Positions 1 to 45,623 of a stretch of DNA of 64,000 nucleotides are shown here, one piece after another. The DNA comes from a virus. Each line of letters begins with the position of its first letter. Position 1 is the stretch's first letter. Position numbers and translations under genes: made by a program. The DNA lies in the IMG/VR virus record IMGVR_UViG_3300047157_000073, positions 59,704 through 123,703 of that record. The stretch is one strand, 5' to 3'. The notes under the pieces were generated by a model. That model did not search any database and had not been told where the DNA came from. It saw only the letters and a program-made list of their open reading frames with translations.

Positions 1-1507
1 ACTTGGTTCAGTTAAATATTGGGATATATTAATTTACAACGAACTTCGAAAGAAAGGTATTGTTATACCACAAAAAATTCAAAGAAACAAAACTGAAAAG
101 TTTGAAGGTGCATATGTAAAAGAGCCACAAGTTGGTTTACATAATTGGGTTATGTCTTTTGATTTAAATTCACTATACCCACATCTGATTATGCAATATA
201 ATATTTCACCAGAAACATTAGTTGCAAATGAAAAAGTTAAAAACATGTCTGTTGAGAAAATGCTAAATAAAAGTGTAGATACATCTGTTTTAAAAGATGC
301 GACTATGACACCAAATGGTGCTTTGTTTAAAACAACTCAAAAAGGATTTCTACCTGAACTCATGCAAAAGATGTATGATGACAGAGTAAAATTCAAACAG
401 TTAATGTTGGAGGCAAAGAAAGATTATGAAAGAACTAAAGACCCAAAACTTAAAAAAACGATTGCAAAATTTAACAACATCCAAATGGCTAAAAAGATTT
501 CTCTTAATAGTGCGTATGGTGCTATTGGTAATAACTGGTTTAGGTATTATAATATTTTGGTTGCTGAAGCAATTACTACCAGTGGTCAATTTGCTATTAG
601 ATATATTGAACATTCTCTTAACGGGTATCTTAATAAAATACTTGAAACCAATGGAGAGGATTACATTATTGCATCAGATACGGACTCGGTGTATATTTGT
701 TTTGACAAACTTGTCAGCAAAGTATTCAAAGGAGAACAAGATAAAAGAAAAATCGTTGACTTCTTGGACAAGGTCGCTACAGATAAAATCGAACCTTTTA
801 TTGATAAGTCTTATCAAGAACTTGCTGAATATGTAAATGCCTATGAACAAAAGATGCAGATGAAAAGAGAAGTGATTGCAGACAAAGGTATTTGGGTTGC
901 AAAGAAAAGATATATTTTAAATACACATGATGTTGAAGGTGTTCGTTATAAAGAACCTAAATTAAAAATTATGGGTGTTGAAGCTGTGAAGTCATCAACC
1001 CCTGCACCTTGTCGTGAAAAAATTAAACAAGCATTAACAATTATAATGAATGAAGATTCAAAAGTGCTAAATAGTTTTATACAAGATTTTAGAAAAGAAT
1101 TTATGACATTAAAACCAGAACTAGTTGCGTATCCACGCTCTGTAAATGGATTAAACAAATGGACTGAATCACATAATCTATTTAAGAAAGGAGCACCGAT
1201 ACATTGTAAAGGTGCAATATTATATAATCATCTTTTAAAGGAGAAAAAATTACAAGGTAAGTATCCTTTTATACAAGAAGGTGATAAGATTAAATTTTTA
1301 CATATGAAAATACCAAACACATATCAATCAACATCTATATCATTTATGACTAAGTTACCAAAAGAATTAAACTTACATAGTATAGTAGATTATGATATGC
1401 AATTTGAAAAGTCATTTATAGAACCATTAAAATTTATTACAGGTATTATACAATGGCAGATAGATGGTAGTTATGGAACACAAGGAACATTAGAGGAGTT
1501 TTTCTAA
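1..1507 (+). CDS. 43: Family B DNA polymerase (T4 gp43-like), 5'-truncated by the window
   Basis: SFDLNSLYPH, KISLNSAYG, ASDTDS and KKRY motifs; C-terminal clamp-binding TLEEFF. Confidence 0.97.
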   Translation, partial: LGSVKYWDILIYNELRKKGIVIPQKIQRNKTEKFEGAYVKEPQVGLHNWVMSFDLNSLYPHLIMQYNISPETLVANEKVKNMSVEKMLNKSVDTSVLKDATMTPNGALFKTTQKGFLPELMQKMYDDRVKFKQLMLEAKKDYERTKDPKLKKTIAKFNNIQMAKKISLNSAYGAIGNNWFRYYNILVAEAITTSGQFAIRYIEHSLNGYLNKILETNGEDYIIASDTDSVYICFDKLVSKVFKGEQDKRKIVDFLDKVATDKIEPFIDKSYQELAEYVNAYEQKMQMKREVIADKGIWVAKKRYILNTHDVEGVRYKEPKLKIMGVEAVKSSTPAPCREKIKQALTIIMNEDSKVLNSFIQDFRKEFMTLKPELVAYPRSVNGLNKWTESHNLFKKGAPIHCKGAILYNHLLKEKKLQGKYPFIQEGDKIKFLHMKIPNTYQSTSISFMTKLPKELNLHSIVDYDMQFEKSFIEPLKFITGIIQWQIDGSYGTQGTLEEFF

Positions 1508-1611
1508 TGGCAGGTAAAGGAGATAAAAGAAGACCAATGAAAGTACCACAAGATGATTATGAAAAAAATTGGAATAGAATATTTGAAAAGAAAAAGAAAG
1601 AAAAAAAATGA
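1507..1611 (+). CDS. Small basic hypothetical protein, 34 aa (MAGKGDKRRP...NWNRIF)
   Basis: ORF read from sequence; ATG overlaps the gp43 stop and its stop overlaps the next ATG. Confidence 0.6.
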   Translation: MAGKGDKRRPMKVPQDDYEKNWNRIFEKKKKEKK

Positions 1612-2798
1612 AATATAAACCATATAATTTAAAAGATGTTGTTAAGGCTTCTGAACAAGAAAAGTTTACAGTAGTATCTACCTTTGCTGGTGGCGGTGGT
1701 AGTTCCACAGGTTATCGTTTGGCTGGTGGTAAGATATTATGTGTGAATGAATTCGTTGAACAAGCCATAAACACATATAAAGAAAACTACCCAGACACAC
1801 CTGTACTACCAGATGATATAAAAAAACTTACTGCAGAAGATTTTAACAAGTATGGTGACATAGATATCTTTGATGGTTCACCACCATGTTCAGCATTCTC
1901 TGTATCTGGTGCAATGGTACAAGGCGGACACTCTAAAGGTTGGGGTCAAACTAAGAACTATTCTGATGGTAAGAAGATTGAGAATATAGAAGATTTATTT
2001 TTTGAGTTTTTAAGAGTTGCAAAAGATTTAAGACCTAAAGTTATTGTTGCTGAAAATGTAAAAGGATTAACTGTAGGAGAGGCAAAGAAATATTATTATA
2101 AAATTACAAATACATTTGAAGAAATAGGATATGATGTATCATCTAAAGTTTTAAATTCTGTTCACTATGGTGTTCCACAAACTAGACAAAGAACTATCTT
2201 TATTGCTGTTCGTGAAGATGTAACACAAGAGATAGGACTAACATTTATGAATATTGCTAGTATCTTCCCAGATGAAAGTAAAGATGTTGTCACACTAGAA
2301 GATTGTTTAAGTGATGTAGAAGTAGATAGAAAAGAAGCAGATGAACTAACAGAAAAATTTAAAAATAAATCTCATTATGAAACTTGGTTGAAAATGCCAG
2401 ATGACCCAGACAAGGTTGAAACAGGTTGTGATTATCATCCTAAAGGTCATCACTTTAATATGAAAAAAACATCTAGACATAAACCTGCTCCAACAATTAC
2501 AGCAACAGGTGGGGCTATGCATTGGACTGAACCTAGACCATTTACAATTAAAGAAACAAAAAGAATAATGTCATTACCTGATGATTTTAAATTAACAGGT
2601 AGTCATAGTCAACAGTCAGAAAGATGTGGCAGAATGGTACCACCTCTAATGATGAAAGCAATTGCAGAATCAATTTATGAAAAAGTATTGAAACCATACT
2701 ATAAAAAAAAACCTAAAGAAATAGGTGGAAGAAAAGATGGTTTAGAACCCACTCGATATAATGATTGGGAATCGAAAGGAAGATGTATAGATTTTTAA
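1608..2798 (+). CDS. C5-cytosine DNA methyltransferase-family protein, predicted carboxymethyltransferase, with C-terminal DUF1674/SDHAF4-like peptide
   Basis: Motifs FAGGGG, GSPPC, ENV, PQTRQR; motif X reads CGRMVPP instead of GN(A/S)VP; tail GGRKDGLEPTRYNDWESKGRCIDF. Confidence 0.9.
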   Translation: MKYKPYNLKDVVKASEQEKFTVVSTFAGGGGSSTGYRLAGGKILCVNEFVEQAINTYKENYPDTPVLPDDIKKLTAEDFNKYGDIDIFDGSPPCSAFSVSGAMVQGGHSKGWGQTKNYSDGKKIENIEDLFFEFLRVAKDLRPKVIVAENVKGLTVGEAKKYYYKITNTFEEIGYDVSSKVLNSVHYGVPQTRQRTIFIAVREDVTQEIGLTFMNIASIFPDESKDVVTLEDCLSDVEVDRKEADELTEKFKNKSHYETWLKMPDDPDKVETGCDYHPKGHHFNMKKTSRHKPAPTITATGGAMHWTEPRPFTIKETKRIMSLPDDFKLTGSHSQQSERCGRMVPPLMMKAIAESIYEKVLKPYYKKKPKEIGGRKDGLEPTRYNDWESKGRCIDF

Positions 2799-2799
2799 T

Positions 2800-3939
2800 A
2801 TGAAATATTCAAAGTATAATTTAAAAGATGTAAAAGAAGCATCGGCACAAAATAAGTTTAGTGTCATATCTACCTTTGCAGGTGGTGGTGGTTCATCTAC
2901 AGGTTATAGACTTGCAGGTGGAAATATACTTTGTGTAAATGAGTTTGTAGAACAAGCAAGAATTACATATAAAGAAAATTACCCAGATACAAAAATACTA
3001 CCTGATGATATAAAACAACTAACAGGTAAAGACTTTTTAAAAACTGCTGGAATACAAAAAGGTGAACTAGATATATTAGATGGCTCACCACCATGTTCTG
3101 CTTTTTCAATGTGTGGAACACTAGGACAGTCTGGTTCTAAACATTCTGATGGTTGGGGTAAAACTAAAAAGTATTCAGACAATAAAATAGTAGAAAATAT
3201 AGAAGACTTATTTTTTGAGTATCTTAGAGTTGCAGAAGAAATAAAACCAAAAGTAATCATAGGAGAAAATGTTGCAGGTCTTCTCGCAGGCGAAGCAAAA
3301 TTAAAGCTAAATGAGATTGTAAACACATTTGAAAAAATTGGTTATGATGTATCATATAAGATTTTGAATGCATCACATTTTGGAGTACCACAGTCTAGAA
3401 GGCGAGTTATCTTTATAGCAGTCCGTGAGGATGTCACAGAGGCCATAGGATTGACATTTATGAACATTGCTAGTATCTTTCCACAAGAGAATAAAGAAGT
3501 AGTAACAGCAGGAGAGGCACTAGAGGATTTAGAATTAGATAAAGAAGAAGTTAAATGGTGTACAGATACATGGTTAAGTTCCGCACATTACAAGGATACA
3601 GCATCTTTAATGCCAGATGACCCAGATAAAGTATTAGGTGGAAATGACTTTCATCCTAAAGGATGGCATTTCAATGTTAAGAAAATGTCTAGACATCATC
3701 CAGCCCCAACAATTACGACAAATGCAGATGTTTGTCACTTTATTGAAAAAAGGCGGTTGACAATTCGTGAAATAAAGCGTATAATGGCTTTACCAGATGA
3801 TTTTATAGTGACTGGTTCTATGTCACAGAAAATAGAAAGATGTGGTAGAATGGTACCCTCATTAATGATGAAGGCCATTGCTGAATCTGTCTATAAAAAT
3901 GTAATACAACCTTATAATTGGGTTTGTGGAATGGAGTAA
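2800..3939 (+). CDS. Second C5-cytosine DNA methyltransferase paralog, predicted carboxymethyltransferase
   Basis: Same motifs (FAGGGG, GSPPC, ENV, PQSRRR, CGRMVPS); clear paralog of the upstream gene. Confidence 0.9.
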   Translation: MKYSKYNLKDVKEASAQNKFSVISTFAGGGGSSTGYRLAGGNILCVNEFVEQARITYKENYPDTKILPDDIKQLTGKDFLKTAGIQKGELDILDGSPPCSAFSMCGTLGQSGSKHSDGWGKTKKYSDNKIVENIEDLFFEYLRVAEEIKPKVIIGENVAGLLAGEAKLKLNEIVNTFEKIGYDVSYKILNASHFGVPQSRRRVIFIAVREDVTEAIGLTFMNIASIFPQENKEVVTAGEALEDLELDKEEVKWCTDTWLSSAHYKDTASLMPDDPDKVLGGNDFHPKGWHFNVKKMSRHHPAPTITTNADVCHFIEKRRLTIREIKRIMALPDDFIVTGSMSQKIERCGRMVPSLMMKAIAESVYKNVIQPYNWVCGME

Positions 3940-3944
3940 AAATT

Positions 3945-4649
3945 ATGTCTAAAAATTATGACTTTACCTTTGCCCAACGGGAAGAAGGTTTTGATGACCA
4001 TATAGAACATTCGATTCGTGGATATACAAACTTACTAGAAGATGTAATTAGTCTATCTAGAAACTTTGTAGAAGATGAAACAAATGTTGTTGATATTGGT
4101 TGTTCAACAGGAAAATTAACAGAGGCCTTTGTAAAAGGTAATCAATCATTTTGTAAGTATGCTAATTATGTTGGTATAGAACTTGCTCCTAGTTTCTTCA
4201 CAGAACTTGACGCAAGACATGAAAGAATGAAAAATGAATACTATTGGGCAAATGTTAATTTTGAAAAGAAAGATGTTCGTAATTACAAATTTGAAAATTG
4301 TAGTTTAGTAACATCAATATTTACATTACAATTTATGCCTAGAAAAGATAGATTTAATGTATTACAAAATATATACAATGGACTAAATCATGGTGGTGCT
4401 TTTATCTTCGCAGAAAAAACAGTTTGTGATGATTCAAGATTACAAGAAATGATAACTTTTAATTTTTATGATTATAAAAGAAAACATTTCGAAGCATCAG
4501 ATATTTTAGAAAAAGAAAAAACATTAAGGAACATGTTAAAACCTAATACTTGGAAAGAGTTAGAAGGTATGTTAGAATGTGCTGGATTTAAAACTGCACA
4601 ACCATTCTGGCGTAATCATATGTTCGTTGGTGCAATTGCAATTAAGTAG
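3945..4649 (+). CDS. cmoA: CmoA-like carboxy-S-adenosyl-L-methionine synthase
   Basis: FDDHIEHSIRGY, DIGCSTG, FTLQFM, GAFIFAEK and K..LRNML match the CmoA pattern. Confidence 0.85.
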   Translation: MSKNYDFTFAQREEGFDDHIEHSIRGYTNLLEDVISLSRNFVEDETNVVDIGCSTGKLTEAFVKGNQSFCKYANYVGIELAPSFFTELDARHERMKNEYYWANVNFEKKDVRNYKFENCSLVTSIFTLQFMPRKDRFNVLQNIYNGLNHGGAFIFAEKTVCDDSRLQEMITFNFYDYKRKHFEASDILEKEKTLRNMLKPNTWKELEGMLECAGFKTAQPFWRNHMFVGAIAIK

Positions 4650-4658
4650 GGTACAATT

Positions 4659-5677
4659 ATGAATGACTTTTTAAAAGATGTTATCAAAGAAACGGGTAAC
4701 GAATATGCAGGAATAGTTTCAGATGGTGTAGAGGCTGGAGATGTAGAGAACTTTATAGATACAGGTTCTCATATATTTAATGGATTAATCTCTGGTTCAC
4801 TCTATGGTGGACTTCCACAAAATAAGATTACTGCTCTGGCAGGAGAAAGTGCAACAGGTAAAACTTTCTTTCTCATGGGTATGGTTAAAAACTTTCTAGA
4901 CCAAAATCCAAACTCTGGTGTTGTATACTTTGAATCAGAAAGTGCAATCACAAAACAGATGGTTGTTGATAGAGGTATAGATGCAAATAGAATGGTGATA
5001 ATGCCAGTAACAACTGTACAAGAGTTTAGACATCAAGCATTAAAAGTATTAGATAGATACATGCAACAAGATGTAGATATCGAAGACCACTCTTTATATG
5101 TTTAGATTCACTTGGTATGTTATCAACTACAAAAGAAGTAGAAGATACAGAGGCAGGAAAAGAAACTAGAGATATGTCAAGAGCACAAATACTCAAAGCT
5201 GCATTTAGAGTTTTAACTTTAAAACTTGGAAAAGCAAAAGTACCAATGGTTGTAACCAATCATACATATGATGTAATTGGTTCAATGTTCCCAACTAAAG
5301 AAATGGGTGGTGGTAGTGGATTGAAGTATGCTGCTTCAAGTATCATATATCTTTCAAAGAAAAAATTTAAAGATGGTACAGAAGTAATTGGTAATATCAT
5401 TCATTGTAAGAATCATAAGTCAAGATTGACTATGGAAAATAAAATGGTTGATGTTTTACTAACTTATGACAAAGGACTTGATAAGTATTATGGACTACTT
5501 GACTTGGCAGTGGCACATGGAATATTTAAACAAGTATCCACTCGTATTGAATTACCAGATGGTACTAAACAATATGCTAAAACAATTAACAATGACCCAG
5601 AAAAATATTTCACAAAAGAGGTTATGGAAAAATTAGAAGAAGCTGCATTAAAAGAATTTAAATATGGAAACGAATGA
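4659..5677 (+). CDS. uvsX: UvsX/RecA-like recombinase (frameshift near 5085)
   Basis: Walker [21 protein letters not shown]; two fragments joined. Confidence 0.93.
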
Positions 5678-6219
5678 TAGGTTTAATTAAAACATATGAT
5701 AATACACTTGATACTCAATCTTGTAATAATTTAATAGATAAGTTTGAACAATTTAAAAATCAACATGAATCATTTGATGATAGAGGAATAGTCTTTACAC
5801 AACTGAATATGGCAAAGGCATCTCAGATTTGGAAAACAGAAATAGAAAAATATACAGAAATTTTTCAAAATAGTTTTACAACTTATTTGACAGACTTAGA
5901 AATTTCACCACAACAAATGCCAAGTAAATATATGTGGGAACCTATTCGAATAAAAAGATATTTACCGAATGACCATGATGAATTTAAACCACATGTAGAT
6001 GTAAATTCAAAACAAACATCTACAAGATTTTTAGTTTTCTTTATATATCTTTCAGATAATGAAGAAGGCAAAACTACTTTTCCACAATTAGATAGTTATG
6101 CTGAATGTAAGAAAGGTAGTTTATTAATGTTTCCACCTATGTGGCCATGGCTACATGCTGGAACAAAACCAATAAAGGAAGCAAAATATATAATGCAGAC
6201 TTATTTACACTATGTCTAA
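5674..6219 (+). CDS. 2OG-Fe(II) oxygenase
   Basis: HVD, FFIYL, G.T.F, FPP.W...HAG..P...KY motifs. Confidence 0.88.
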
Positions 6220-6511
6220 TATTAAAGAATCATATGTTTTTGTAGAAAGTAAAGCACAAGACCAAACTTGTATTGGTATCAAGGGTGGAAAGTTTGCTGG
6301 TGTAATTTATAAGTATGGAAAAGTTTCACTTGGTGAAGAAACAGAAGATGGTAATATGCCATTTAAATTTGAATTTGATATCATAGATAATAATTCAGTG
6401 CCGAGAGAAAATTTTGGAGATGATTGGTCAAATTTAATAGGTGATATTTTAATAGATATAATTGAGGAACAATATGCAGAATCAGACAATAGAAAGGACA
6501 ACTCTAACTAA
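6212..6511 (+). CDS. Conserved T4-like hypothetical protein upstream of the helicase (gp40 position)
   Basis: ORF, synteny uvsX-x-gp41, GKFAGVIYKYGKV block. Confidence 0.55.
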   Translation: MSNIKESYVFVESKAQDQTCIGIKGGKFAGVIYKYGKVSLGEETEDGNMPFKFEFDIIDNNSVPRENFGDDWSNLIGDILIDIIEEQYAESDNRKDNSN

Positions 6512-7851
6512 TCTTCTAAACAACGAAGAATATTCTAGAAAGGTTTTACCATTTATAAAACCAGAATACTTTGATGTTAAAGAAGAAAGAATAATCTTTG
6601 ATGAGATACAAAAGTTTGTAGACAAGTATAATAAGATACCAACTCAAACATCATTAGAAATAGAAGTTAGTACAAGGAAAGATTTAAATGATGTAGAACA
6701 TAAAAAGATTGTTGAGATAATTAAAACTCTCAAAAAAGAAACTATAGATTTTGATTGGTTAGTAGATACAACAGAAAAGTTTGTCAAAGATAAAGCAATC
6801 TATAATGCAATCGTAGAAGGTGTTGGTATTATAGATGGTAAGTCTAAAGATAAAACACCAGAAGCAATCCCACACATTTTAACAGAGGCACTTGCAGTAT
6901 CTTTTGACAATTCTGTTGGACATGATTATCTAGAAGATTCTGAATCAAGATTTGATTACTATCATCATAAAGAAGAAAGGATACCATTTGATTTAGAATT
7001 CTTTAACAAGATTACTAAAGGTGGACTTCCACCAAAGACTTTAAATATTGCATTGGCAGGAACAGGTGTAGGTAAATCATTGTTCATGTGTCATCAAGCT
7101 GCAAACTGTTTATCACAAGGAAAGAATGTTTTATATATTTCATTAGAAATGGCAGAAGAAAGAATTGCAGAAAGAATAGATGCCAATATGATGAATATCA
7201 GTATACCAGATTTACATGACTTACCTAAGAAAATGTTTGATGATAAGATTACAAGATTACAAAAGAAAGCAAAAGGTAAATTAATTATCAAAGAGTATCC
7301 AACTGCATCCGCACATAGTGGTCACTTTCAGAGGACTACTGAAAGAACTTGCAATTAAGAAATCTTTCAAACCAGATATTATCTTTATTGATTATTTAAA
7401 CATCTGTGCATCAAGTAGATTTAAGGCAGGCAGTTCTATGAACTCTTATACAATCATTAAATCTATTGCAGAAGAACTCAGAGGACTTGCAGTAGAAACA
7501 AATGTACCTATTATGTCTGCAACACAAACGACAAGAAGTGGATTCTCTAATACAGATGTTGGACTAGAAGATACATCAGAAAGTTTTGGATTACCTGCAA
7601 CGGCTGACTTAATGTTTGCATTGATATCTACAGATGAACTAGAAGAACTGAATCAAATCTGTGTCAAACAATTAAAGAACAGATACAATGACCCTACAAT
7701 GAATAAGAGATTCATCATTGGAATAGATAGAAACAAAATGAAACTATTTGATGTAGAACTCAAAGCACAAGATGAACTTGTAGACCATGGTCAATATGTT
7801 ACACCTATTGCAGATAAAGGACAAGGATTCGGTAAAGGACACAGGCCCTAA
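6474..7851 (+). CDS. 41: DnaB-like replicative helicase gp41 (frameshift near 7325)
   Basis: AGTGVGKS, SLEMAE, IDYLNI, SATQTTR, SESFGLPATAD. Confidence 0.96.
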
Positions 7852-8009
7852 TCTATCTGGTAGACCAGATGATGTAAATCCATTCTCAAAAACAGGTCAA
7901 GAACAATCCAAAGAAGACAAATATGACAAATTCTCTAAGTTAAAAGTTTGATAAATAGAAACATATAACTATATTTAAATGGAGAAATTGATGTCATTAC
8001 AGACGCTCT

Positions 8010-9476
8010 ATGGAGCAGTTAAGACCTGCTCGTACTCAAAAGATAGACTTACAAGAAAAGGTTCAAATACTTTTAACAGAGGAATCTGAAAAGTTTTCTA
8101 CTGCTATGGAAAATGTCATTGGTGCATGTTACGAGGCAGCATCTCAACCTGCCAATCAAAAAGAGGCTAAAATGAACGCCTTGATAAAAAAATTTAGTAA
8201 AGATTTTAATAATACCAGCACTGTTCATAAGGGAGAAGACCAAGTAAAAAATTGTCTTGCGTTTGGAGAAAAAATTAAAAATGCACTGCCTGGTAAGGGT
8301 GACGGAAAATTTGCGGTACAAACAAAAGGAACAATTACAGCAGATTGGAAAAAATGGGGTGGTAAAAACAATACATCTAAAACAGACATAGTGATAGGTA
8401 AATTTAAATGTTCAGTAAAAAATGCAGATGGTGCTCAACTTATGAGTGCAAAGTCTGGTGAATCTATTGCTACTGCTGAAGCTGCAGCAGAAGAAATAAA
8501 TGGAACTAAAAATCCAATACCTGCAAAAACATTAAGTGGTTTAACAGCTGCTATGGATGAGTTGGCACAATTTACATCAGAAGGTTATTATGCATCTATG
8601 GATAATTTAAGAGCATTAAAAGAGAAAGGACAAGGTAAAACATTAATAAAATATTTAGAAAAAAAACAAAAAGATTATGAAAAAGATTTAGAAAAATGGG
8701 AAAATAGTGGTGGATTAAAAAAAGATAAACCTAAAGGTTTAACTGCAACAGAAAAGAAAATATTGGCAAATAAAGAAAAGGCATCAGAATATAAAACTGT
8801 TTTAAAAGGTATAAATGCTGAATTTATGGAAAATGTAGATGGTATCTTTAAACAAAATCAAGATAAAGTTAAAAAATTATTAATAAAAGCATTTGATACT
8901 AAAGGTGATTATAAATTAGCATTTGTTCACGAGGCAGCAACAGGTAAAAGAAAGTTTGGAACTGATACAGTACAATATGCAGATTACTTATTAAGTTGGA
9001 GAAAAAAATCAAATATTGCTGATTTTGATGTTGATGTTGAAAGTGTTGGAAAAAGAACAGATTCTTTAATCAAAAAATATGCAAAACAAATAGATTTACA
9101 AGTAAATTGGAAGTCATCATCTACAACAAAACATGATGGTTATAATTTATATCAAAATGTCCGTCTAGGAGTAAAATCAGCACAAAGTAAAGTAGAAAAA
9201 CAAGAAGAAAGTTTTCATCAAAAGATAGATGAATATCAAATGCAATTAAATGAAGGTTTAATAACCGAAGTTTGGTTATGGGATAAGATAAAAGAATTAA
9301 CTCAAAAATTCATGGAAAATATCAAAGGAATATGGAATGGTATTAAAAAATATTTACAACAGGTATTTGAAAAAATTACAGAATTTGCTAGTGAGGGTAT
9401 AGAAGCTTTATCAAATGGATTAGGATTTGAAATAGAAACTAATGAACCACTTGAAGGTGTAAATTTAAAACTGTGA
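8010..9476 (+). CDS. Hypothetical protein, 488 aa, possible PD-(D/E)xK-like segment
   Basis: Long ORF; SKTDIVI...CSVK..G.QLMS segment; late-promoter-like ATAAATA at 7951. Confidence 0.55.
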   Translation: MEQLRPARTQKIDLQEKVQILLTEESEKFSTAMENVIGACYEAASQPANQKEAKMNALIKKFSKDFNNTSTVHKGEDQVKNCLAFGEKIKNALPGKGDGKFAVQTKGTITADWKKWGGKNNTSKTDIVIGKFKCSVKNADGAQLMSAKSGESIATAEAAAEEINGTKNPIPAKTLSGLTAAMDELAQFTSEGYYASMDNLRALKEKGQGKTLIKYLEKKQKDYEKDLEKWENSGGLKKDKPKGLTATEKKILANKEKASEYKTVLKGINAEFMENVDGIFKQNQDKVKKLLIKAFDTKGDYKLAFVHEAATGKRKFGTDTVQYADYLLSWRKKSNIADFDVDVESVGKRTDSLIKKYAKQIDLQVNWKSSSTTKHDGYNLYQNVRLGVKSAQSKVEKQEESFHQKIDEYQMQLNEGLITEVWLWDKIKELTQKFMENIKGIWNGIKKYLQQVFEKITEFASEGIEALSNGLGFEIETNEPLEGVNLKL

Positions 9477-10722
9477 ATAATCTAGCAGAACAATTATTAT
9501 TCGAAGATAAAGGTGGAAAGAACCTTCATCTAGAACACATAGAAGATGAGATACTTAACTATGGTATCACAGGTGGTCGTGCATCTATAAACTTTATACA
9601 GTCACTAAGAGATATGTTTGCTGGTGCAAGTCGTTCATCTATTAACATGACAGTTAAGTGGGATGGTGCTCCTGCAGTCTTTGCTGGAGTAGACCCAGCA
9701 GATGGTAAGTTTTTTGTAGGAAAGAAATCAGTCTTTAATGTAGAACCACAACTCTATAAAACAGATGCAGATGTAGACAAATACACATCTGGTGATTTAA
9801 ATAAAAAACTTAAAGTTGCTTTATCAGAGTTTTCAAAATTAGGTATCAAAGGAGTTTTACAAGGTGACTTAATGTTTACAGATGATGTATCTACAGATAC
9901 TATAGATGGTAAGAAGTATTATACATTCCAACCAAACACTATTGTTTACGCAGTAGATGTTGATTCAGATTTTGGAAGTCAAATTAAAAAAGCAAAGATT
10001 GGTGTGGTATGGCATACAACATATACAGGTAAAGAATTACAAGATATGAAAGCATCTTTTGGAGTAAACATATCAGGTCTTAAATGATGTATCTAGTGTA
10101 TGGCAAGATGATGCAACATTTAAAGATGTATCAGGTAGTGCAACAATGACAGAAAAAGAAACAGCAGCTATAACTGCTGAGTTATCCACTGCTGGTAAAA
10201 CATTTCAAAAAATTAACTCATCTATGTTAACTAAGTTTTTAAATTTACAAAATAGTTTTACTGGTGCAATGGTATCAGCAGGATTAAAGACATATAATAA
10301 TATTAGTGTTAGACAAGGTAAACCAATAAACAAATCCTAAGGCACATGCTCAAGGTTATGTTAAACATGTAGTATGATAAGTACAAGACAAAGTAAAAGA
10401 TTCAAAAAGTAAAGCTGGAAAAGACAAATATAAAAACTTACAAAAAGAGTATACTAGAGAAGTAAATAAACATGTTAAAAACTTAACAGAAATAATTACA
10501 TTTCAAAATGCGATTGTAAAAGCAAAAATGTTAATAGTAAAAAAATTAAATCGTGTTAAAAGTATTGGAACATTTATTAAAACAGATAATGGATTTAAAG
10601 TATCAAACCCAGAGGGGTATGTTGCAATAGATAGAGTGTCTGGTAATGCTGTAAAATTAGTAGATAGAATGGAGTTTAGTTATAATAACTTTACTGCTAT
10701 CAAAGCATGGGATAAGTCATAA
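9473..10722 (+). CDS. Conserved T4-like hypothetical protein (DUF6267-like), several frameshifts
   Basis: HLEHIED, TVKWDGAPA, QGDLMF, FQPNTI, PEGYV, KLVDRMEFS fragments in order. Confidence 0.75.
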
Positions 10723-11102
10723 TGAAAAAATTTAAAGAACATCTACAAGAAAAAGCAACATATGAATTTGGTGGAATTTATGAACCTAAAGGTATCAAAG
10801 ATATCAAAACATATGAAAATCCAAATATTAATATAACTGGTATGGCAACATATGATTTAGAAACTATAACAAATATGATAACAAGAAAACTTTTAGAATT
10901 AACTAAAGAGGCAAGAACATTAGAAAAGGATGCTAAAAAAGATGCCAAACTTTTTAGATATGGTTCATATAGAACTATGCAAAATAAAATAGAGAGTAAT
11001 TTAAAATACTTTATTGGAGCTATGGCTGATGTTGAAAGTCAAATGACAACACCAGCAATGAAAGCAAAAGGAACTAAACTAGGGTCTAAAAAATACAAAT
11101 GA
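10722..11102 (+). CDS. Hypothetical protein with capsid-targeting-like N-terminus
   Basis: Starts MKKFKEHLQE. Confidence 0.6.
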   Translation: MKKFKEHLQEKATYEFGGIYEPKGIKDIKTYENPNINITGMATYDLETITNMITRKLLELTKEARTLEKDAKKDAKLFRYGSYRTMQNKIESNLKYFIGAMADVESQMTTPAMKAKGTKLGSKKYK

Positions 11103-12480
11103 AGAGATTTATAGATTTACAAGAAGCAACAGGAACAGTATCATTTACTTTTGGTAGATTTAATCCACCAACGACTGGTCATGAAAAACTATGTGATGCT
11201 GTAAAGAAAGCAAATCCTAGTGATTATAAAATCTTTGCTTCTCAATCACAGAATCCTAAGAAAGACCCATTACAATATGCAAAGAAAATTGCATATATGA
11301 AAAAGTCATTTCCTAAACATAAAAGAAATATTGTAGTATCAAAGTCTAGAAACATTTTTGAAATACTAGTAGAACTAAACAGTTATGAAAATCTTATTAT
11401 GGTTGTAGGTTCTGATAGAGTGGCAGAATTTAAAAAAATAATTGACACATATAATGGTGTTAAAGCAAGACATGGATTCTATGAATATAAAACAGTAAAA
11501 GTATTAAGTGCTGGAGAAAGGGACCCAGATGCTGAAGGTGTAGAGGAATGTCTGCATCTAAAATGAGAGCAGCTGCAGTCGATAGTGATTTTGATTCTTT
11601 TAAATTAGGAACACCATTAAACGATACACAGGCTAAAAAATTATATTTTGATGTTCGTAAGTCTATGGGTATCAGAGAAGAATTAAATTTATCTGATTTA
11701 GAAACACTAAGAGAATTATATCTTTCAGAGCAAATTTGGAATGTTGGTGATTTAATAGAGTAAAAGGTAAAAATGATAATACATATCCAACATGGGAAAT
11801 TATTCGTAGAGGTACAAACTATGTAACTATTATAGATGAGAATTACAAATCTCATAAAGTATGGTTACATGATATAGACATTACAGAAGTTAAACAAGAT
11901 AAAGAAATTAAAGATAGAGATGGCACTCAACCTGCTAAGTATTATGGAAGTAAGATTGCAAAATCTACAAAAACTAAAAGAGCAGCTCAGTTTAAGAAAC
12001 AGACTAAAATGGATGATGATGACCCAGATGCTTACAAACCAGCACCAGGCGATGCAACAGGAAAAACTAAACCATCTAAACATACTAAAAAGTTTAAACA
12101 GATGTTTGGTGAAGATGGTCCATGTTGGGATTCACATAAACAAGTAGGTACTAAAATGAAAAAATGGTAAGAGAGTACCTAACTGTGTTCCAAAAGAAGA
12201 CAATGCTAGAATTCCTAGAAAGAAAGGACAACCAGCAGGAAGTGATAAACATTCAGACTTGTATACAGATGAGAACCCAGAGGGTACAATTCAAGGACTA
12301 GGATTTAAAGATGTAGAAACTGCAAAGTCAAGTGTTGCAAAGATTGAAAGGTCTGATAGAACACATGCACATAAAATACAAGCTGCAGTTGCAATGGAAC
12401 AGAGAGCAAAAGAAATGGGTAAGAACTGCTGAAGCTGCAATCTATCGTACATACATTGAGAAGATGAAAAAGAAAACTAA
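11099..12480 (+). CDS. Cytidyltransferase-like (HxGH nucleotidyltransferase) modular protein, several frameshifts
   Basis: FGRFNPPTTGHEKL, MVVGSDR, SAGERDPD, MSASKMR, then short modules (PAPGD..KPSKHT, PCW...VPNCVP). Confidence 0.8.
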
Positions 12481-12484
12481 AAGA

Positions 12485-13255
12485 ATGAGAGAGTTTACAG
12501 AGTTTATGTATGAGAAGGCACCTGATACAGCAGATGCAATGAAAAGATATAAAGCAGGAAAGGCTGGATTTACAGATATCGCACATCTCAAAGCAAAAGG
12601 ATTAATTAAGAGGGCCGATGGTACAAAAAGAAAATCTGAAATGAAAGAGGAGTTTCAATTCTATCCAAAAGATTTAGAAGACTATATTCAAATACCAGAC
12701 TTTCCTAAAGATGATATGCAAAGAGAAATGTCAATTATTAGAAAAGCAATAAACACAAGAACTGATAAAGATGTAGAGAGTGTTGCAAACAATGATGAAG
12801 ATTCTTTCTACTCAATCAAAAAGTATCTGAAAAAAATGAAAGTAGAATTTCATGAGAACGAGTTAAGAGATATTGTACAACAAGCAGTTCCTACAATTAG
12901 ATATTTTAAAAACAAGTTTAATCGTAAAAGACCTTTTGAGATAGATGGTAATCTAGATGTATTAGGAAGTAAGACAAATAAAACTAGGTCATATCCTAGT
13001 GGACATTCTACACAGGCAATGATTGTTGCTTTATATGTGGCAAGAAAGTTTCCAAAACATAGAGATGGTCTTATGGAGGCTGCAAAAGAAGTTGGAATGG
13101 GTAGAGTAAAAGCTGGATTCCATTTTATATCTGACCATGTTGCTGGCCAGATGTTAGGAACAAAAATGTTTGAGATGATGAACAAAGCAGATTATGGAAA
13201 GTCTTTAAGAGAATATTATCTAATGGGAACACCTGAGTATGATGAAGTATCTTAA
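12485..13255 (+). CDS. PAP2-family phosphatase domain protein or module
   Basis: K..FNRKRP, SYPSGHS, R..AGFHFISD. Confidence 0.85.
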   Translation: MREFTEFMYEKAPDTADAMKRYKAGKAGFTDIAHLKAKGLIKRADGTKRKSEMKEEFQFYPKDLEDYIQIPDFPKDDMQREMSIIRKAINTRTDKDVESVANNDEDSFYSIKKYLKKMKVEFHENELRDIVQQAVPTIRYFKNKFNRKRPFEIDGNLDVLGSKTNKTRSYPSGHSTQAMIVALYVARKFPKHRDGLMEAAKEVGMGRVKAGFHFISDHVAGQMLGTKMFEMMNKADYGKSLREYYLMGTPEYDEVS

Positions 13256-13270
13256 GAAAGTTAACACCAG

Positions 13271-13594
13271 GTGAAAAGGCAGAAGAAAATACTAAATGAG
13301 TGGGGTGAAATAGATGAGGATGCTGAGTATCAAGGAAGAAAAGTCAAACTAAATAATCCAACAAAAGGTGATATCAAAAAATTTAAAGTATATGTGAGAA
13401 ATGATAAGGGTAATGTAATCAAAGTAGAGTTTGGTGACCCTAATATGGATATCAAAAGAGATAGCCCAGAAAGACTTAAAGCATTCAGAGCAAGACATAA
13501 TTGTGACCAAAAGAAAGATAAGACCACGGCAGGATATTGGTCTTGTAAGTTTTGGGAGAAAGGAAAAACTGTGACAGACTTAATGAAAGGATAA
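13271..13594 (+). CDS. Conserved phage module (DUF6321-like), probably C-terminus of the upstream protein
   Basis: AEYQGRKVKL...KVEFGD...FRARHNC...AGYWSC. Confidence 0.65.
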   Translation: MKRQKKILNEWGEIDEDAEYQGRKVKLNNPTKGDIKKFKVYVRNDKGNVIKVEFGDPNMDIKRDSPERLKAFRARHNCDQKKDKTTAGYWSCKFWEKGKTVTDLMKG

Positions 13595-13602
13595 ATACTA
13601 TA

Positions 13603-15685
13603 ATGGATACATTAAACGAAAAAATTGAAGGATTAGTCAAGAAAGCTGAGAAGTCTAAAATGCCATATGGTATACTCAAAAAAGTATATGATAGAGGTAT
13701 GGCTGCTTGGAAAACGGGGCATAGACCTGGTACAACCCCACAACAATGGGCCTTTGCAAGAGTGAATTCGTTTATTACAAAATCATCTGGTACATGGGGT
13801 AAGGCAGATGCAGATTTAGCAAAACAAGTTAGAGGTGAAGAAGTGGAAAAAAGAACAACTGCAAAAAGTATGTTAGGACAAGTTAAAGAAGCCAGATATG
13901 AAATGAATTTGACAAAGGTGATTTTGGACAAGATAGCAGACCGACCTTATTACTTGCAGATGAAATTCAAAGGTGAATTAGATAGTAAGAAGAATTAGAG
14001 CAAAAGTTAAATCAACTGGTAGTAAAAATATAGAATTTAATACAATATTCCTCAAAGAAAAATGTTAAAAATATTGAAAGATAAATTAGACCTAGACTGT
14101 TTTTAGAAAAGAAGATATATCAGAAAAACTACCTAAAGATGCTGACGCTGGTGACTATGTAAAAGATTTTAGAAAATCAGATGCTCCACAATTCAAAGGA
14201 AAGTCAGATAAGAAGAAACAGAAGATGGCAATCGCAGCATATCTAGATTCTAAAGAAGAAGTCAAAGAAGAAAAAAGACAACTGAAAGACCCAAAGAAAG
14301 AAACAATGGTTATGAAAGTAAAAGATGCTGGTAGTATACAGGTCATAGATAAAAAAGATTTAGAAAAATTTTTAAGAAAAGGTTACATACAAGTAGAAGA
14401 TAATATACAAGAAGAAAATTGCCCAGACTGTAATGAAGACCCATGTAAATGTAAACCATTACAAGAATCAGGTCATACAGATGTGGCATCTATGAAAACA
14501 CAAGTACAGATTGCTAAAGATGCATTAGAAAAAATGAATATAGAATTAGGAAAACTAAGTGATGAAGAAGACCTTCCAACTTGGTGGACAAACAAAGTTG
14601 CAACAGCAGTGGGTAAACTAGATGGGATGGCAGACTACATTGATGCAAAATCAGACCAGGGGCAAAAAATGAATGAAAGTAATTTAACAGAAGAAAAAGT
14701 ATTTGTAGTAAGATTTGAAAAGGAAGGCATGAGATTTGCTGTACCATTTAGTGATATGAAAAGGGCAAAGGATGGTGAGAAGATATTAAAAAAATCTGCT
14801 GGAGTTAGTAATGTTAGTGTAACAAAAGATATACTAAAGCCTGGTGTCAGTATGTCTAAATTCAGAACACAACAAGAGGGTAAAATAGTGAAAGAAAGTA
14901 AAATGGGTGAGTTATTCTTAGATATGCAAATGGATGCTCAAGAAATGAGTGAAAGAGATTTCATTAAAACATACTCTAAACAAGGATTCCAAGCAGCAGA
15001 ACTAAAAAGAATGCATAAAGAATTCAATGAGGAAGTAGTAAAAGAAGCTGTCGCACAAAATGATGCTTTTATTGTAACTGGTGGACCAGGTGATAATGCT
15101 CAAAAAGTTATTGCTGTATTTAAAGATAAAGGTAATGGATTAAAGGATGCGAAGAAAGCAAGAGATGATTATAATAAAAAGAATAAACCTACTAAAAAAT
15201 CACACTTCGCAAGAATATACAGACAGACTAGATTATCTCAAGCAGGTCAAAGATTAAAACCTGGTGAAAAAATAATGTATTCTACATTTGGTAACAAACA
15301 ACAATTCACTAAAGTAAAAGAAGACATACAAGTAGAAGAAGTAGATAACAGTCTAATGGCACAAGCAACTAGAGTGATATCTCATACATCTATCAAAGAA
15401 AAGATAGACCCTGCTGATGTAGATAATATAGCAACTGCTGATGATAGAAAGGCAGCAGATAAGAATATTATCATTCAATTAAGAAGAGCACAGGATATGC
15501 AAGGAAAGGCAGATGTTACTTTTAAGGATAAACCTAATAAAAAAGAGAAAATAGATATAAAAGTTATAAATAAAGCTTTAGATATGTTTGATAAAATGAG
15601 ACCAAACGATAAAGCAAAAATGCAAACAACAATAGGTAAGTCATACAGAGATTTACTCAAAACTGTACAAAGGGGGCGAATATGA
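13603..15685 (+). CDS. Modular hypothetical protein with N-terminal DUF5824-like domain (frameshifted fragments)
   Basis: ILKKVYDRGMAAW..GHRPG.TPQQWA.ARV; acidic modules separated by (L/V/I)xE sites. Confidence 0.6.
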
Positions 15686-30379: not shown

Positions 30380-30387
30380 GATAGATT

Positions 30388-31883: not shown

Positions 31884-31884
31884 A

Positions 31885-45486: not shown

Positions 45487-45623
45487 ATATGCGATTAGTA
45501 ATATCATTACTAGATGTCCTATTAATTATCTTTCTCTTAGTGATGATGATGCAATACATGTAGATAATACTTGACAAACAATGTTATACCTAGTATAATG
45601 GTTTTAAATAATTGGAGTATATT

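What the first reader, a model, noticed from the sequence alone, without database searches (positions are those of the whole stretch)
1608..4649. Two tandem C5 methyltransferases with motif X Asn-to-Arg plus CmoA: predicted carboxymethylcytosine DNA modification
Seen: both MTases keep catalytic PC and ENV but read CGRMVP where the family has GN(A/S)VP, and they are followed directly by a CmoA homolog, between gp43 and uvsX. Known: CmoA makes carboxy-SAM; a basic residue at this Asn (engineered M.MpeI N374K) switches C5 MTases to carboxy-SAM and yields 5-carboxymethylcytosine; to my recollection a natural phage CmoA plus carboxymethyltransferase pair has been reported, so the chemistry is not wholly new. 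Unusual here: two paralogs that differ in the target-recognition region (ATGGAMHW vs TNADVCHF), implying two specificities or a heterodimer. No amide-ligase-type tailoring gene is visible in the window.
Basis: partly seen in the sequence, partly recalled or inferred. Interest (0 to 1): 0.78.

Follow-up and report, generated by a model that had tools for sequence, protein, structure and literature searches.

The report
Twin phage DNA carboxymethyltransferases plus CmoA
An uncultured marine T4-like phage carries a recently published kind of DNA-modification system that puts a carboxymethyl group on cytosine, here with two diverged copies of the transferase, no follow-up ligase, and an unexpected tail borrowed from a respiratory-enzyme assembly factor.

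Summary
Window 1608-2798 (X1) and 2800-3939 (X2) are C5-cytosine methyltransferase homologues. Both keep SPPC and ENV and have Arg where the family has Asn. A CmoA homologue follows (true start probably 3945), between DNA polymerase gp43 and uvsX.

This is the CmoA-CmoX system published for Synechococcus phage S-B43 (Yang et al. 2025, PMC12783734). X1 and X2 are 61% and 57.5% identical to SpCmoX (PDB 8YF3), and the CmoA is 58% identical to SpCmoA. So the chemistry (Cx-SAM, then 5-carboxymethylcytosine) is known.

Four things are new:
- **Tandem pair.** It is conserved in 48 of 48 related contigs that span both positions. Both copies are under purifying selection (dN/dS about 0.1), with fixed differences near motif IV and in the target-recognition region. 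It was absent from 40 more distant CmoX loci.
- **Missing ligase.** The CmoY ligase is cleanly absent here but present in 34 of 39 relatives.
- **X1 tail.** X1 ends in the SDHA-binding C-terminal peptide of SDHAF4 (DUF1674).
- **Split gene.** That tail and the 34-aa ORF upstream are the two halves of a small phage gene, which is intact in relatives without the cassette.

Target motifs, a heterodimer and SdhA binding remain untested.

The parts
2..1507 (+). C-terminal 501 aa of the T4-type DNA polymerase (gp43); left border of the slot
   Evidence: tblastn 65% aa identity to the DNA polymerase B of Methylophilales phage Melnitz and 57% to cyanomyophage polymerases. It is 88-100% identical in related contigs.
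1507..1611 (+). 34-aa ORF (MAGKGDKRRP...NWNRIFEKKKKEKK). It is the N-terminal half of a small phage gene that the cassette has split. It overlaps the gp43 stop (TAATG) and the X1 start (ATGA).
   Evidence: The same N-module heads free-standing 58-60-aa proteins that end in the SDHAF4 tail. In CmoY-bearing relatives it is fused in frame to CmoY. No Pfam or PHROG family matches it.
1608..2798 (+). cmoX1: DNA cytosine C5-carboxymethyltransferase paralogue 1 (396 aa). SPPC 1878-1889 (Cys94), ENV 2052-2060, CGRMVP 2625-2642 (Arg342 at 2631-2633), TRD string ATGGAMHW 2502-2525.
   Evidence: PF00145 E 1.5e-59. 8yf3 SpCmoX E 1e-147, 61% identity. Residue mapping. dN/dS 0.11-0.21 among orthologues.
2712..2795 (+). 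C-terminal tail of X1 (PKEIGGRKDGLEPTRYNDWESKGRCIDF, then stop). It equals the SDHA-binding C-terminal peptide of SDHAF4 (DUF1674).
   Evidence: PF07896 E 4.5e-14, 53 bits against a cut-off of 23.5. It aligns to the last 27 residues of human SDHAF4 (8dyd_C, E 5.4e-7) and to RhR2 (2k5k). The terminal D-F and the two Glu that were tested in PMC10784507 are kept. 21 of 42 X1 ORFs carry it. Tail dN 0.046 against dS 0.306.
2800..3939 (+). cmoX2: DNA cytosine C5-carboxymethyltransferase paralogue 2 (379 aa). SPPC 3085-3096 (Cys99), ENV 3265-3273, CGRMVP 3841-3858 (Arg350 at 3847-3849), TRD string TNADVCHF 3718-3741.
   Evidence: PF00145 E 2.8e-57. 8yf3 E 4e-138, 57.5% identity to SpCmoX and 65.6% to X1. 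dN/dS about 0.10.
3945..4649 (+). cmoA: carboxy-S-adenosyl-L-methionine synthase homologue (234 aa from ATG 3945; the open frame starts at TTG 3918)
   Evidence: 58% identity to the biochemically tested SpCmoA and 60% to the S-CRM01 homologue. TIGR00740 E 7.6e-36, 124 bits. E. coli CmoA 4gek E 2.6e-26. phrog_4752 E 8.5e-65.
4659..5677 (+). uvsX (RecA-like recombinase), right border of the slot. In this record it is split into 4659-5105 and 5117-5677 by a one-base deletion near 5081.
   Evidence: Pfam RecA on both pieces. All 10 relatives compared, and RNA-library contigs of 4 of 4 runs, carry one more base at 5080/5081.

Best explanation
The region is a CmoA-CmoX DNA hypermodification cassette of the kind described for Synechococcus phage S-B43. 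It sits in the replication-gene cluster of an uncultured marine T4-like myophage.

Proposed mechanism:
- CmoA converts SAM plus prephenate into carboxy-SAM (inferred from 58% identity to the tested SpCmoA).
- X1 and X2 each flip out a cytosine, attack C6 with the SPPC cysteine and transfer the carboxymethyl group of Cx-SAM to C5. The motif-X arginine holds the carboxylate (inferred from 57-61% identity to SpCmoX and from conservation of all residues named in its crystal structure).
- The record has no CmoY ligase, so the end product here is most likely 5-carboxymethylcytosine itself. Most relatives, which keep CmoY, should go on to an amide such as the glycine adduct.

The two paralogues are both maintained by selection. 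They differ by fixed changes beside the catalytic loop and in the target-recognition region. I therefore think it more likely than not (about 0.55) that they modify different sequence contexts, so that a larger share of the phage's cytosines is covered. A GpC-only enzyme could reach at most 15% of them.

Gene overlaps and very short spacers from gp43 through uvsX suggest expression together with the replication genes. The SDHAF4-like tail of X1 comes from a small phage gene that the cassette split. It is kept by selection in half of the lineage and probably still binds the host SdhA flavoprotein (inference only).
For: - **Homology to the solved, assayed enzyme.** 8yf3 gives E 1e-147 for X1 and 4e-138 for X2, covering residues 5-362 and 5-370. 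Identities are 61.2% and 57.5%.
- **Residues named in PMC12783734** (F25, E47, F48, D69, S95-P96-P97-C98, R350) plus ENV. They are kept in 42 of 42 X1 rows (F25 in 41, with one gap) and 42 of 42 X2 rows. Rows were picked by the presence of PPCS and GRMVP, so Cys98 and Arg350 are kept by construction; the others are not.
- **Asn to Arg.** Arg lies on the Asn of HaeIII's GNAVP.
- **CmoA.** It is 58% identical to SpCmoA, whose Cx-SAM synthase activity was measured.
- **No competing partner or ligase in the 123.7-kb record.** No CmoB (PF08003) for a tRNA role. No CmoY by PF00733 or by tblastn with SpCmoY, best E 4.7. The relatives' CmoY does hit PF00733 (E 2.3e-11), so the family search could have found it.
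- **Both copies maintained.** 48 of 48 lineage loci that span both positions carry X1 and X2 in tandem. Median dN/dS is 0.09-0.21.
- **Divergence.** There are 55 fixed differences. 17 lie in SpCmoX positions 76-125 (variable insert, motif IV, catalytic loop) and 18 in positions 216-330 (TRD).
- **Target share.** GpC context holds 15.0% of the record's cytosines.
- **Gene packing.** TAATG, ATGA, then 1-nt, 5-nt and 9-nt spacers.
- **Occurrence.** The stretch is near-identical in 14 DNA runs (at least 0.90 of sampled words) and occurs in 6 RNA-library runs (0.31-0.63). RNA-library contigs bridge X1/X2 (2774-3243) and X2/cmoA/uvsX (3809-4754).
Against: - No enzyme of this window has been assayed. 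Everything rests on homology at 57-61% identity.
- The CmoA scores 124 bits on TIGR00740, below NCBI's equivalog cut-off of 193.3. The validated SpCmoA also fails it (115.6 bits).
- The record is only 71% complete by CheckV, so a ligase or other tailoring enzyme could lie in the missing part.
- Different specificities are inferred from where the substitutions fall, not shown. The divergence is symmetric: 15 sites where X1 keeps the single-copy state, 16 where X2 does, and 24 ambiguous. So neither copy can be named as the one that keeps SpCmoX's GC motif.
- RNA libraries can hold DNA, and two of the four runs laid are oligo-dT libraries. No silent stretch was laid as a control, so transcription is not shown.
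- The record carries several split genes (uvsX, gp41, gp32), so its sequence quality is imperfect. X1 and X2 are nevertheless 100% and 99% identical to those of an independent contig.
Confidence: 0.85

Rival explanations
1. The two CmoX copies have the same target (GC, as SpCmoX). They are kept for dosage or kinetics, for example fast complete modification of replicating DNA, not for a second specificity.
For: Both keep the whole catalytic and cofactor set. In S-B43 only about 75% of GC sites are modified by a single enzyme (paper text), so more enzyme could help. Neither copy is clearly the 'ancestral-like' one.
Against: The copies share only 65.6% identity, with long stem branches (0.43-0.48 and 0.38-0.45 changes per site) followed by tight conservation within each clade. 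That is the pattern of functional divergence rather than dosage. The fixed differences concentrate in DNA-facing segments. 0 of 40 other CmoX loci needed a second copy.
Confidence: 0.25
2. X1 and X2 work as an obligate heterodimer, for example one catalytic subunit and one DNA-reading subunit, or each serving one strand of an asymmetric site.
For: They are always adjacent (48 of 48), with a 1-nt spacer in the window. That arrangement would favour equimolar synthesis.
Against: SpCmoX is a monomer in solution by SEC and is active alone (paper text). Both paralogues keep every catalytic and cofactor residue. In some relatives other genes sit between the two: a 75-aa ORF, a 168-aa NPPF-motif ORF, or an ammonium transporter. 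That loosens the coupling.
Confidence: 0.07
3. The carboxymethyl group is still amidated in this phage, by a ligase encoded in the unsequenced 29% of the genome or supplied by the host. The final base would then be an amide, as in S-B43, not 5cxmC.
For: The record is 71% complete. 34 of 39 relatives have CmoY. S-B43 virion DNA held only the glycine adduct (paper text).
Against: In relatives CmoY always sits in the cassette, directly before X1. Here, and in 5 other contigs, that 0.8-kb gene is cleanly missing, with the small ORF now abutting X1. No PF00733 or SpCmoY-like sequence occurs in 123.7 kb. S-CRM01 also has CmoA-CmoX without a CmoY beside them.
Confidence: 0.15
4. The enzymes are ordinary SAM-dependent 5mC methyltransferases (or one of them is). 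The phage CmoA would then serve another purpose, such as draining SAM or modifying host tRNA.
For: The paper itself raises SAM depletion by CmoA as a possible side effect (Discussion). No assay exists for these proteins.
Against: Wild-type SpCmoX accepted only Cx-SAM, and its R350N mutant accepted neither cofactor. Both window enzymes have the Arg. No CmoB was found in the record. All 39 further single-copy relatives examined also have the Arg.
Confidence: 0.03

Closest known systems
CmoA-CmoX-CmoY system of Synechococcus phage S-B43 (Yang et al., Nat Commun 2025, PMC12783734; SpCmoX structure PDB 8YF3)
   Same: It has a Cx-SAM synthase plus a C5-MTase homologue with SPPC and the Arg that binds the carboxymethyl group. 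Identities are 57-61% (CmoX) and 58% (CmoA). Both sit in a T4-like marine myophage.
   Different: The window has two CmoX paralogues instead of one, and the gene order X1-X2-CmoA instead of CmoA-CmoY-CmoX. It has no CmoY. X1 has a C-terminal SDHAF4-like tail. The phage lineage differs: its polymerase is closest to Methylophilales phage Melnitz (65%), not to cyanophages. The paper's main text holds no mention of paralogous or duplicated CmoX or of Pelagibacter. Its supplements were not seen.
CmoA-CmoX pair of Synechococcus phage S-CRM01 (annotated only as methyltransferases; not assayed to my knowledge)
   Same: It is a two-gene arrangement without an adjacent CmoY, in the replication-gene region. 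Identities are 57-59% (CmoX) and 60% (CmoA).
   Different: It has a single CmoX, the order CmoA-CmoX, and no tail.
Engineered M.MpeI N374K carboxymethyltransferase
   Same: A basic residue at the motif-X Asn position switches a C5-MTase to Cx-SAM and yields 5cxmC (as summarised in PMC12783734).
   Different: It is engineered, uses Lys rather than Arg, has CpG specificity and is only a distant relative. M.MpeI structures (4dkj, 8c56) match X1 at E about 2.5e-11.
Bacterial CmoA/CmoB (tRNA cmo5U34 pathway)
   Same: CmoA chemistry. E. coli CmoA structures 4gek/4iwn match at E 2.6e-26 and 2.9e-25.
   Different: No CmoB is present. The acceptor is DNA cytosine through CmoX, not tRNA uridine.
SDHAF4 (Sdh8, DUF1674): assembly factor of the succinate dehydrogenase flavoprotein
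   Same: The last 27-28 residues of X1 align with the C-terminus of human SDHAF4 right up to the terminal Asp-Phe. This is the segment that orders on SDHA and plugs its dicarboxylate site (PMC10784507 passages).
   Different: Here it is appended to a DNA-modifying enzyme of a phage. In related phages it is appended to a 30-aa N-module of unknown function. No binding has been tested.

Membership tests
CmoX (DNA cytosine C5-carboxymethyltransferase, Yang et al. 2025) | Full-length homology to SpCmoX / C5-MTase fold | tested here: met
   8yf3 E 1e-147 (X1, residues 5-362) and 4e-138 (X2, 5-370). PF00145 over the full profile.
CmoX (DNA cytosine C5-carboxymethyltransferase, Yang et al. 2025) | SPPC motif with the catalytic cysteine (S95-C98 of SpCmoX) | tested here: met
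   X1 aa 91-94 and X2 aa 96-99.
CmoX (DNA cytosine C5-carboxymethyltransferase, Yang et al. 2025) | Arg at the position of SpCmoX R350 (Asn in methyltransferases) | tested here: met
   X1 R342 and X2 R350. The Arg lies on the Asn of HaeIII GNAVP.
CmoX (DNA cytosine C5-carboxymethyltransferase, Yang et al. 2025) | Other Cx-SAM contacts named in the structure (F25, E47, F48, D69) | tested here: met
   F26, E48, F49 and D70 in both window proteins. They are kept in 41-42 of 42 X1 and 42 of 42 X2 orthologues.
CmoX (DNA cytosine C5-carboxymethyltransferase, Yang et al. 2025) | cmoA in the same gene neighbourhood | tested here: met
   cmoA starts 5 nt after the X2 stop.
CmoX (DNA cytosine C5-carboxymethyltransferase, Yang et al. 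2025) | Transfers carboxymethyl from Cx-SAM (not methyl from SAM) to DNA cytosine C5 | not testable with these tools
   Needs enzyme assay and LC-MS.
CmoX (DNA cytosine C5-carboxymethyltransferase, Yang et al. 2025) | GC target motif (shown for SpCmoX only) | not testable with these tools
   The TRD differs between X1, X2 and SpCmoX. No tool reads specificity from sequence.
CmoA (carboxy-SAM synthase) | Full-length homology to bacterial CmoA | tested here: met
   TIGR00740 E 7.6e-36 over profile positions 11-239 of 239. 4gek E 2.6e-26.
CmoA (carboxy-SAM synthase) | Score above NCBIfam's equivalog cut-off (193.3 bits) | tested here: not met
   124 bits. The biochemically validated phage SpCmoA also fails, with 115.6 bits. 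So the cut-off excludes the phage clade as a whole.
CmoA (carboxy-SAM synthase) | Close relationship to an assayed phage Cx-SAM synthase | tested here: met
   58.3% identity over 230 aa to SpCmoA. Activity is reported in PMC12783734.
CmoA (carboxy-SAM synthase) | Makes Cx-SAM from SAM and prephenate | not testable with these tools
   Needs assay.
CmoY (ATP-dependent 5cxmC amide ligase) | An asparagine-synthetase-like gene in the cassette or genome | tested here: not met
   None in the window or in the 123.7-kb record. Present in 34 of 39 relatives. The record is 71% complete.
SDHAF4 / DUF1674 (tail of X1 only) | Match to PF07896 above its cut-off | tested here: met
   53 bits against 23.5, E 4.5e-14, profile positions 21-50 of 50. 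55.7 bits in the genome search.
SDHAF4 / DUF1674 (tail of X1 only) | Strictly conserved Asp-Phe as the very last two residues | tested here: met
   X1 ends ...CIDF followed by the stop. All 10 distinct tail DNA variants keep it. Its role is described in PMC10784507.
SDHAF4 / DUF1674 (tail of X1 only) | Glu residues equivalent to human E84 and E92 | tested here: met
   The E of PKEIGG and the E of LEPTRY align with them (residue numbers counted back from F108 by me).
SDHAF4 / DUF1674 (tail of X1 only) | Binds the SDH flavoprotein | not tested
   The host is unknown. No complex job was sent, because the solved human complex would make a pass uninformative.

The most novel reading that the evidence does not exclude
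The cassette does two things at once. First, the two CmoX paralogues have different target motifs, so this phage lineage carboxymethylates cytosines in two sequence contexts, and natural variants with and without CmoY carry different final bases. Second, X1 is a bifunctional protein whose SDHAF4-mimic tail docks onto the host's free SdhA flavoprotein and plugs its dicarboxylate site. If so, the free-standing 58-aa versions in sister phages would be a so far undescribed class of phage peptide that manipulates host complex II.
Probability: 0.3. Interest if true: 0.7.

Novelty: new variant of a known kind. Interest (0 to 1): 0.45.

Why it matters
The chemistry is no longer new, but this locus offers natural experiments on it. 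One abundant marine phage population shows four states of the gp43-uvsX slot: no cassette; cassette with CmoY; cassette without CmoY; and cassette with or without the SDHAF4 tail. The stretch is near-identical in 14 DNA runs of more than ten studies.

- Comparing the two paralogues would give the first pair of natural carboxymethyltransferases with possibly different motifs. The authors of the founding paper name this as an open need. It would also be useful for sequencing and labelling tools built on 5cxmC.
- The CmoY-less variants predict phage DNA that carries the free carboxylate, which S-B43 virion DNA did not show.
- The SDHAF4-like peptide in phages is unreported in the literature I could search. 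It points to phage interference with, or support of, host succinate dehydrogenase.

Tried and rejected
- **Heterodimer job.** Complex prediction was not sent, because the report does not claim binding and SpCmoX is a monomer.
- **Structure prediction.** Not run. At 57-61% identity to a 1.9 A structure it would add little.
- **Tail with SdhA.** No complex job. The host is unknown, and the solved human SDHA-SDHAF4 complex would make a pass uninformative.
- **Origin of the pair.**
  - A first quick tree put X1 and X2 as sisters (SH-aLRT 87; 6 single-copy rows; the careful search did not finish).
  - With 41 single-copy rows the sisterhood is unresolved (65, drawn open).
  - So duplication in place versus a second acquisition stays open.
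- **Ancestral-like copy.** The attempt to tell which paralogue keeps the ancestral (GC-like) TRD gave 15 against 16 sites with 24 ambiguous.
- **Promoters and terminators.**
  - The scan of 1-8000 found 48 promoter-like sites against 43 +/- 6 expected, and 2 terminator-like sites against 2.3.
  - The one perfect TTGACA-17-TATAAT (3757-3785) lies in conserved X2 codons and is perfect in only 21 of 41 orthologous loci.
  - No T4-late TATAAATA lies within 1-15000.
- **Family and phage searches.** PHROGs has no family for the small ORF or for the 58-aa protein. tblastn of the tail against 50,697 cultured-phage records found nothing.
- **Literature.** 'DUF1674' gave 2 papers, both unrelated to phages. 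'SDHAF4' with 'phage' also gave 2 unrelated papers.
- **RNA libraries.** The contigs leave some bins uncovered, and two of the four runs are oligo-dT libraries. Nothing is concluded from gaps or depth.
- **Supplements.** Those of PMC12783734 were not opened. They may list tandem CmoX loci.

Full report
**What is there**

On the + strand the window reads as follows:
- the C-terminal 501 aa of a T4-type DNA polymerase (2-1507)
- a 34-aa ORF (1507-1611)
- a 396-aa ORF, X1 (1608-2798)
- a 379-aa ORF, X2 (2800-3939)
- a CmoA-like ORF (open frame from 3918, most likely start ATG 3945, to 4649)
- uvsX (4659-5677)

X1 and X2 match Pfam PF00145 end to end (E 1.5e-59 and 2.8e-57) and TIGR00675 dcm. In the alignment to M.HaeIII, the Arg of CGRMVP lies on the Asn of GNAVP. 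The genes are packed as TAATG, ATGA, then 1-nt, 5-nt and 9-nt spacers.

Three details need adding. There is a small ORF in front of X1. X1 has an extra C-terminal domain.

**What it is**

A full-text search found the system in print: Yang et al., Nat Commun 2025, PMC12783734 (I read the outline, Results and Discussion). In Synechococcus phage S-B43:
- SpCmoA makes carboxy-SAM.
- SpCmoX, a C5-MTase homologue, makes 5-carboxymethylcytosine at GC sites and accepts only Cx-SAM.
- Arg-350 contacts the carboxymethyl group, at the place of Asn-304 of M.HhaI.
- SpCmoY ligates glycine onto the carboxylate.

The authors collected 5,615 candidate CmoX sequences (SPPC plus R350) and 4,257 CmoA sequences from IMG/VR, UniProt and MGnify.

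The window's proteins are close relatives of the assayed ones. Against the PDB, the best match of both X1 and X2 is SpCmoX 8yf3 (E 1e-147 and 4e-138). The next best, HaeIII, is at 1e-23 to 1e-27. By BLASTP, X1 is 61.2% and X2 57.5% identical to SpCmoX, and the CmoA is 58.3% identical to SpCmoA. All residues that the paper names (F25, E47, F48, D69, SPPC, R350) are conserved in both window proteins.

The CmoA scores below NCBI's equivalog cut-off for bacterial CmoA (124 against 193.3 bits). The validated SpCmoA does too (115.6 bits), so that failure says nothing against function.

The 123.7-kb record (71% complete; the window is its last 64 kb) has no CmoB and no ParB_N protein. It has no CmoY by Pfam PF00733 or by tblastn with SpCmoY. 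The Pfam scan of 76 further window ORFs shows no ligase either.

**The phage**

The DNA polymerase is closest to that of Methylophilales phage Melnitz (65% aa), followed by cyanomyophages (57%). A short uvsX stretch matches Pelagibacter phage HTVC008M at 75% nucleotide identity. The host is unknown.

Among cultured phages, close CmoX homologues (57-63% identity) occur in five phages, held as six records: S-B43, S-B05, RB11-B, RN05-S and S-CRM01. Each has one copy. CmoA homologues occur in 66 records.

**The tandem pair is real, conserved and lineage-specific**

A scan of IMG/VR with X2 returned 71 loci:

| State | Loci |
|---|---|
| X1 and X2 in tandem | 48 |
| X2 only, with the contig starting in or just before X2 | 10 |
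| X1 only, with the contig ending there | 4 |
| More distant single-copy CmoX | 9 |

So 48 of 48 lineage loci that span both positions have both genes. These contigs come from many metagenomes but from one phage population, so they are not independent origins.

A second scan, with an alignment of diverse CmoX, added 40 loci at 62-68% identity. None shows a second CmoX in the DNA held. 24 of the 40 have cmoA directly downstream and 16 show none.

X1 and X2 are 65.6% identical. Median pairwise dN/dS among orthologues is 0.11-0.21 for X1 and 0.09-0.10 for X2. There are 55 columns fixed differently in the two groups. They cluster in the segment around motif IV and the catalytic loop (17 of 55; X1 has two short deletions there) and in the target-recognition region (18 of 55).

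Compared with single-copy relatives, the changes are split evenly: X1 keeps the outgroup state at 15 sites, X2 at 16, and 24 are ambiguous. So neither copy can be called the unchanged one.

Trees give each paralogue a clade with SH-aLRT 100 and a long stem. They do not settle whether the two are sisters: support was 87 with 6 single-copy rows and 65 with 41 (both are quick trees without bootstrap).

**CmoY is a recent, clean loss**

In 39 related loci that hold both the gp43 end and a full X1:
- 34 have a 0.9-1.0-kb gap holding a CmoY homologue. It is 44-48% identical to SpCmoY, with PF00733 E 2.3e-11 for the L010 copy.
- 5 have a gap of 100-104 nt, as the window does.

On the quick X1 tree the CmoY-less contigs fall in a clade of seven rows together with CmoY-bearing L007, whose X1 is 98% identical to the window's. 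I therefore expect this phage to stop at 5cxmC and most of its relatives to carry an amide. This is an inference. The missing 29% of the genome is the main caveat.

**The tail of X1 and the split small gene**

X1 residues 366-396 match DUF1674 (PF07896, E 4.5e-14). This segment aligns to the last 27 residues of human SDHAF4 (8dyd chain C, E 5.4e-7) and to the Rhodobacter protein RhR2 (2k5k).

Passages of PMC10784507 state the following:
- The C-terminal 34 residues of SDHAF4 become ordered on SDHA.
- The terminal D107-F108 are strictly conserved, also in proteobacterial homologues, and occupy the dicarboxylate site.
- E84 and E92 contact SDHA R171.

All four residues are present in the tail, which ends ...CIDF directly before the stop.

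The tail is found in 21 of 42 X1 ORFs. Across 10 distinct DNA variants it has dN 0.046 against dS 0.306, so it is no assembly artefact.

A search for short proteins sharing the tail found free-standing 58-aa proteins seen on 76, 127 and 154 contigs. They consist of the N-module MAGKGDKRRP...NWDxIFKKKK followed by the same tail.

In 10 close relatives (gp43 89-95% identical) this small gene lies intact between gp43 and uvsX, with no cmo cassette. 8 more have the N-module with a different C-end.

In the window the N-module is the 34-aa ORF in front of X1, and the tail is at the end of X1. In CmoY-bearing relatives the N-module is fused in frame to CmoY. So CmoY-X1 sits inside the split small gene, and both halves survive as fusions. 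How X2-cmoA came to lie behind the tail is not resolved.

No cultured-phage record holds the tail. The literature searches for DUF1674, and for SDHAF4 with 'phage', gave nothing on phages.

**Occurrence and expression**

The 3.2-kb stretch is held nearly intact (0.90-0.97 of sampled words) in 14 DNA runs of seawater or viral metagenomes. It is held in part (0.31-0.63) in 6 RNA-library runs.

Contigs of four RNA-library runs were laid on 1-6500. They cover most of it with few differences and bridge the X1/X2 and X2/cmoA/uvsX junctions. DNA can be present in such libraries, and no silent control was laid, so this is presence in RNA libraries, not proof of transcription.

**How it most likely works**

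- Shown by others for homologues: the CmoA and CmoX chemistry and the role of the Arg.
- Shown here: homology, residue conservation, gene order, conservation of both paralogues, and absence of CmoY and CmoB.
- Inferred: Cx-SAM synthesis by this CmoA; carboxymethyl transfer by both X1 and X2; 5cxmC as the end product; different target motifs; co-expression with replication genes; SdhA binding by the tail.

GpC context holds only 15.0% of the record's cytosines. A second specificity would therefore raise coverage substantially.

**Verdict**

What goes beyond the paper's main text is a variant architecture: twin diverged transferases, natural CmoY-plus and CmoY-minus forms, insertion into a small gene, and an SDHAF4-mimic tail.

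Interest is moderate (0.45). The most novel reading (dual specificity plus a functional SdhA-binding tail) has a probability of about 0.3.

Noticed in passing
window 4659-5677: uvsX is split in this record by a one-base deletion near 5081. All 10 relatives compared, and contigs of 4 of 4 RNA-library runs, have one more base there. The frameshift is therefore private to this record, either an assembly error or a rare variant.
   Followed up: yes
window 6462-7851; 34565-35138; 48445-49330: Other genes also look split into two overlapping ORFs: a DnaB/gp41-like helicase (my reading of the translations; it was not scanned), an adenylate/guanylate cyclase domain, and gp32. This suggests further frameshifts in the record.
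   Followed up: no
L132-L141 (for example L132:855-1028) and proteins P0010, P0014, P0016: These are free-standing 58-60-aa phage proteins made of the GDKRRP...NWDxIF N-module plus an SDHAF4 C-terminal peptide. They lie directly after gp43 in cassette-free relatives. Each cluster was seen on 76-154 contigs. No Pfam family covers the N-module and no PHROG matches.
   Followed up: partly
L076 (Methylophilales phage Melnitz) 4001-6185: The same slot after the DNA polymerase holds a C5-MTase with PPCP and Leu (GLMVAP) at the Asn/Arg position. The ORF after it is 328 aa and looks to me like a TET/JBP-type dioxygenase (by eye, not scanned). This would be a different cytosine-modification module at the same place.
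   Followed up: partly
L042:2503-2730; L045:3294-3800; L087:4284-5561; L089:3750-4022: In some relatives other genes are inserted between X1 and X2. They are a 75-aa ORF without a Pfam match, a 168-aa ORF with an NPPF motif (possibly an N6A/N4C methyltransferase; no Pfam hit), and an ammonium transporter (PF00909, E 9e-97).
   Followed up: partly
whole record G000 (123,703 bases): CpG is strongly depleted. Only 4.8% of cytosines are followed by G, which I compute as observed/expected about 0.30. GpC is near expectation at about 0.93 (counts; ratios by my arithmetic). The cause is unknown.
   Followed up: no
window 3757-3785: There is a perfect sigma-70 consensus (TTGACA-17-TATAAT) inside the 3' end of X2, 160 nt before cmoA. 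It lies in conserved codons and is perfect in 21 of 41 orthologous loci, so it is probably a by-product of coding.
   Followed up: yes
window 5674-6219: A 2OG-Fe(II) oxygenase (PF13640, phrog_61) lies directly after uvsX and overlaps its stop. It is conserved in relatives at 57-83% identity. Its function is unknown.
   Followed up: no
window 29897-35138; 36347-36682; 45148-45920; 60349-60768: The window holds an unusual cargo for a phage: CsgF and CsgG curli secretion homologues, a FecR domain protein, CHASE2 plus cyclase fragments, ribosomal protein S21, an Fe-S assembly protein, DsrC and rubrerythrin.
   Followed up: no
window 52772-53212 (- strand): This is the only sizeable minus-strand gene, a TnsA-like endonuclease N-terminal domain protein (PF08722, E 8.6e-23). 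It is possibly a homing-type endonuclease.
   Followed up: no
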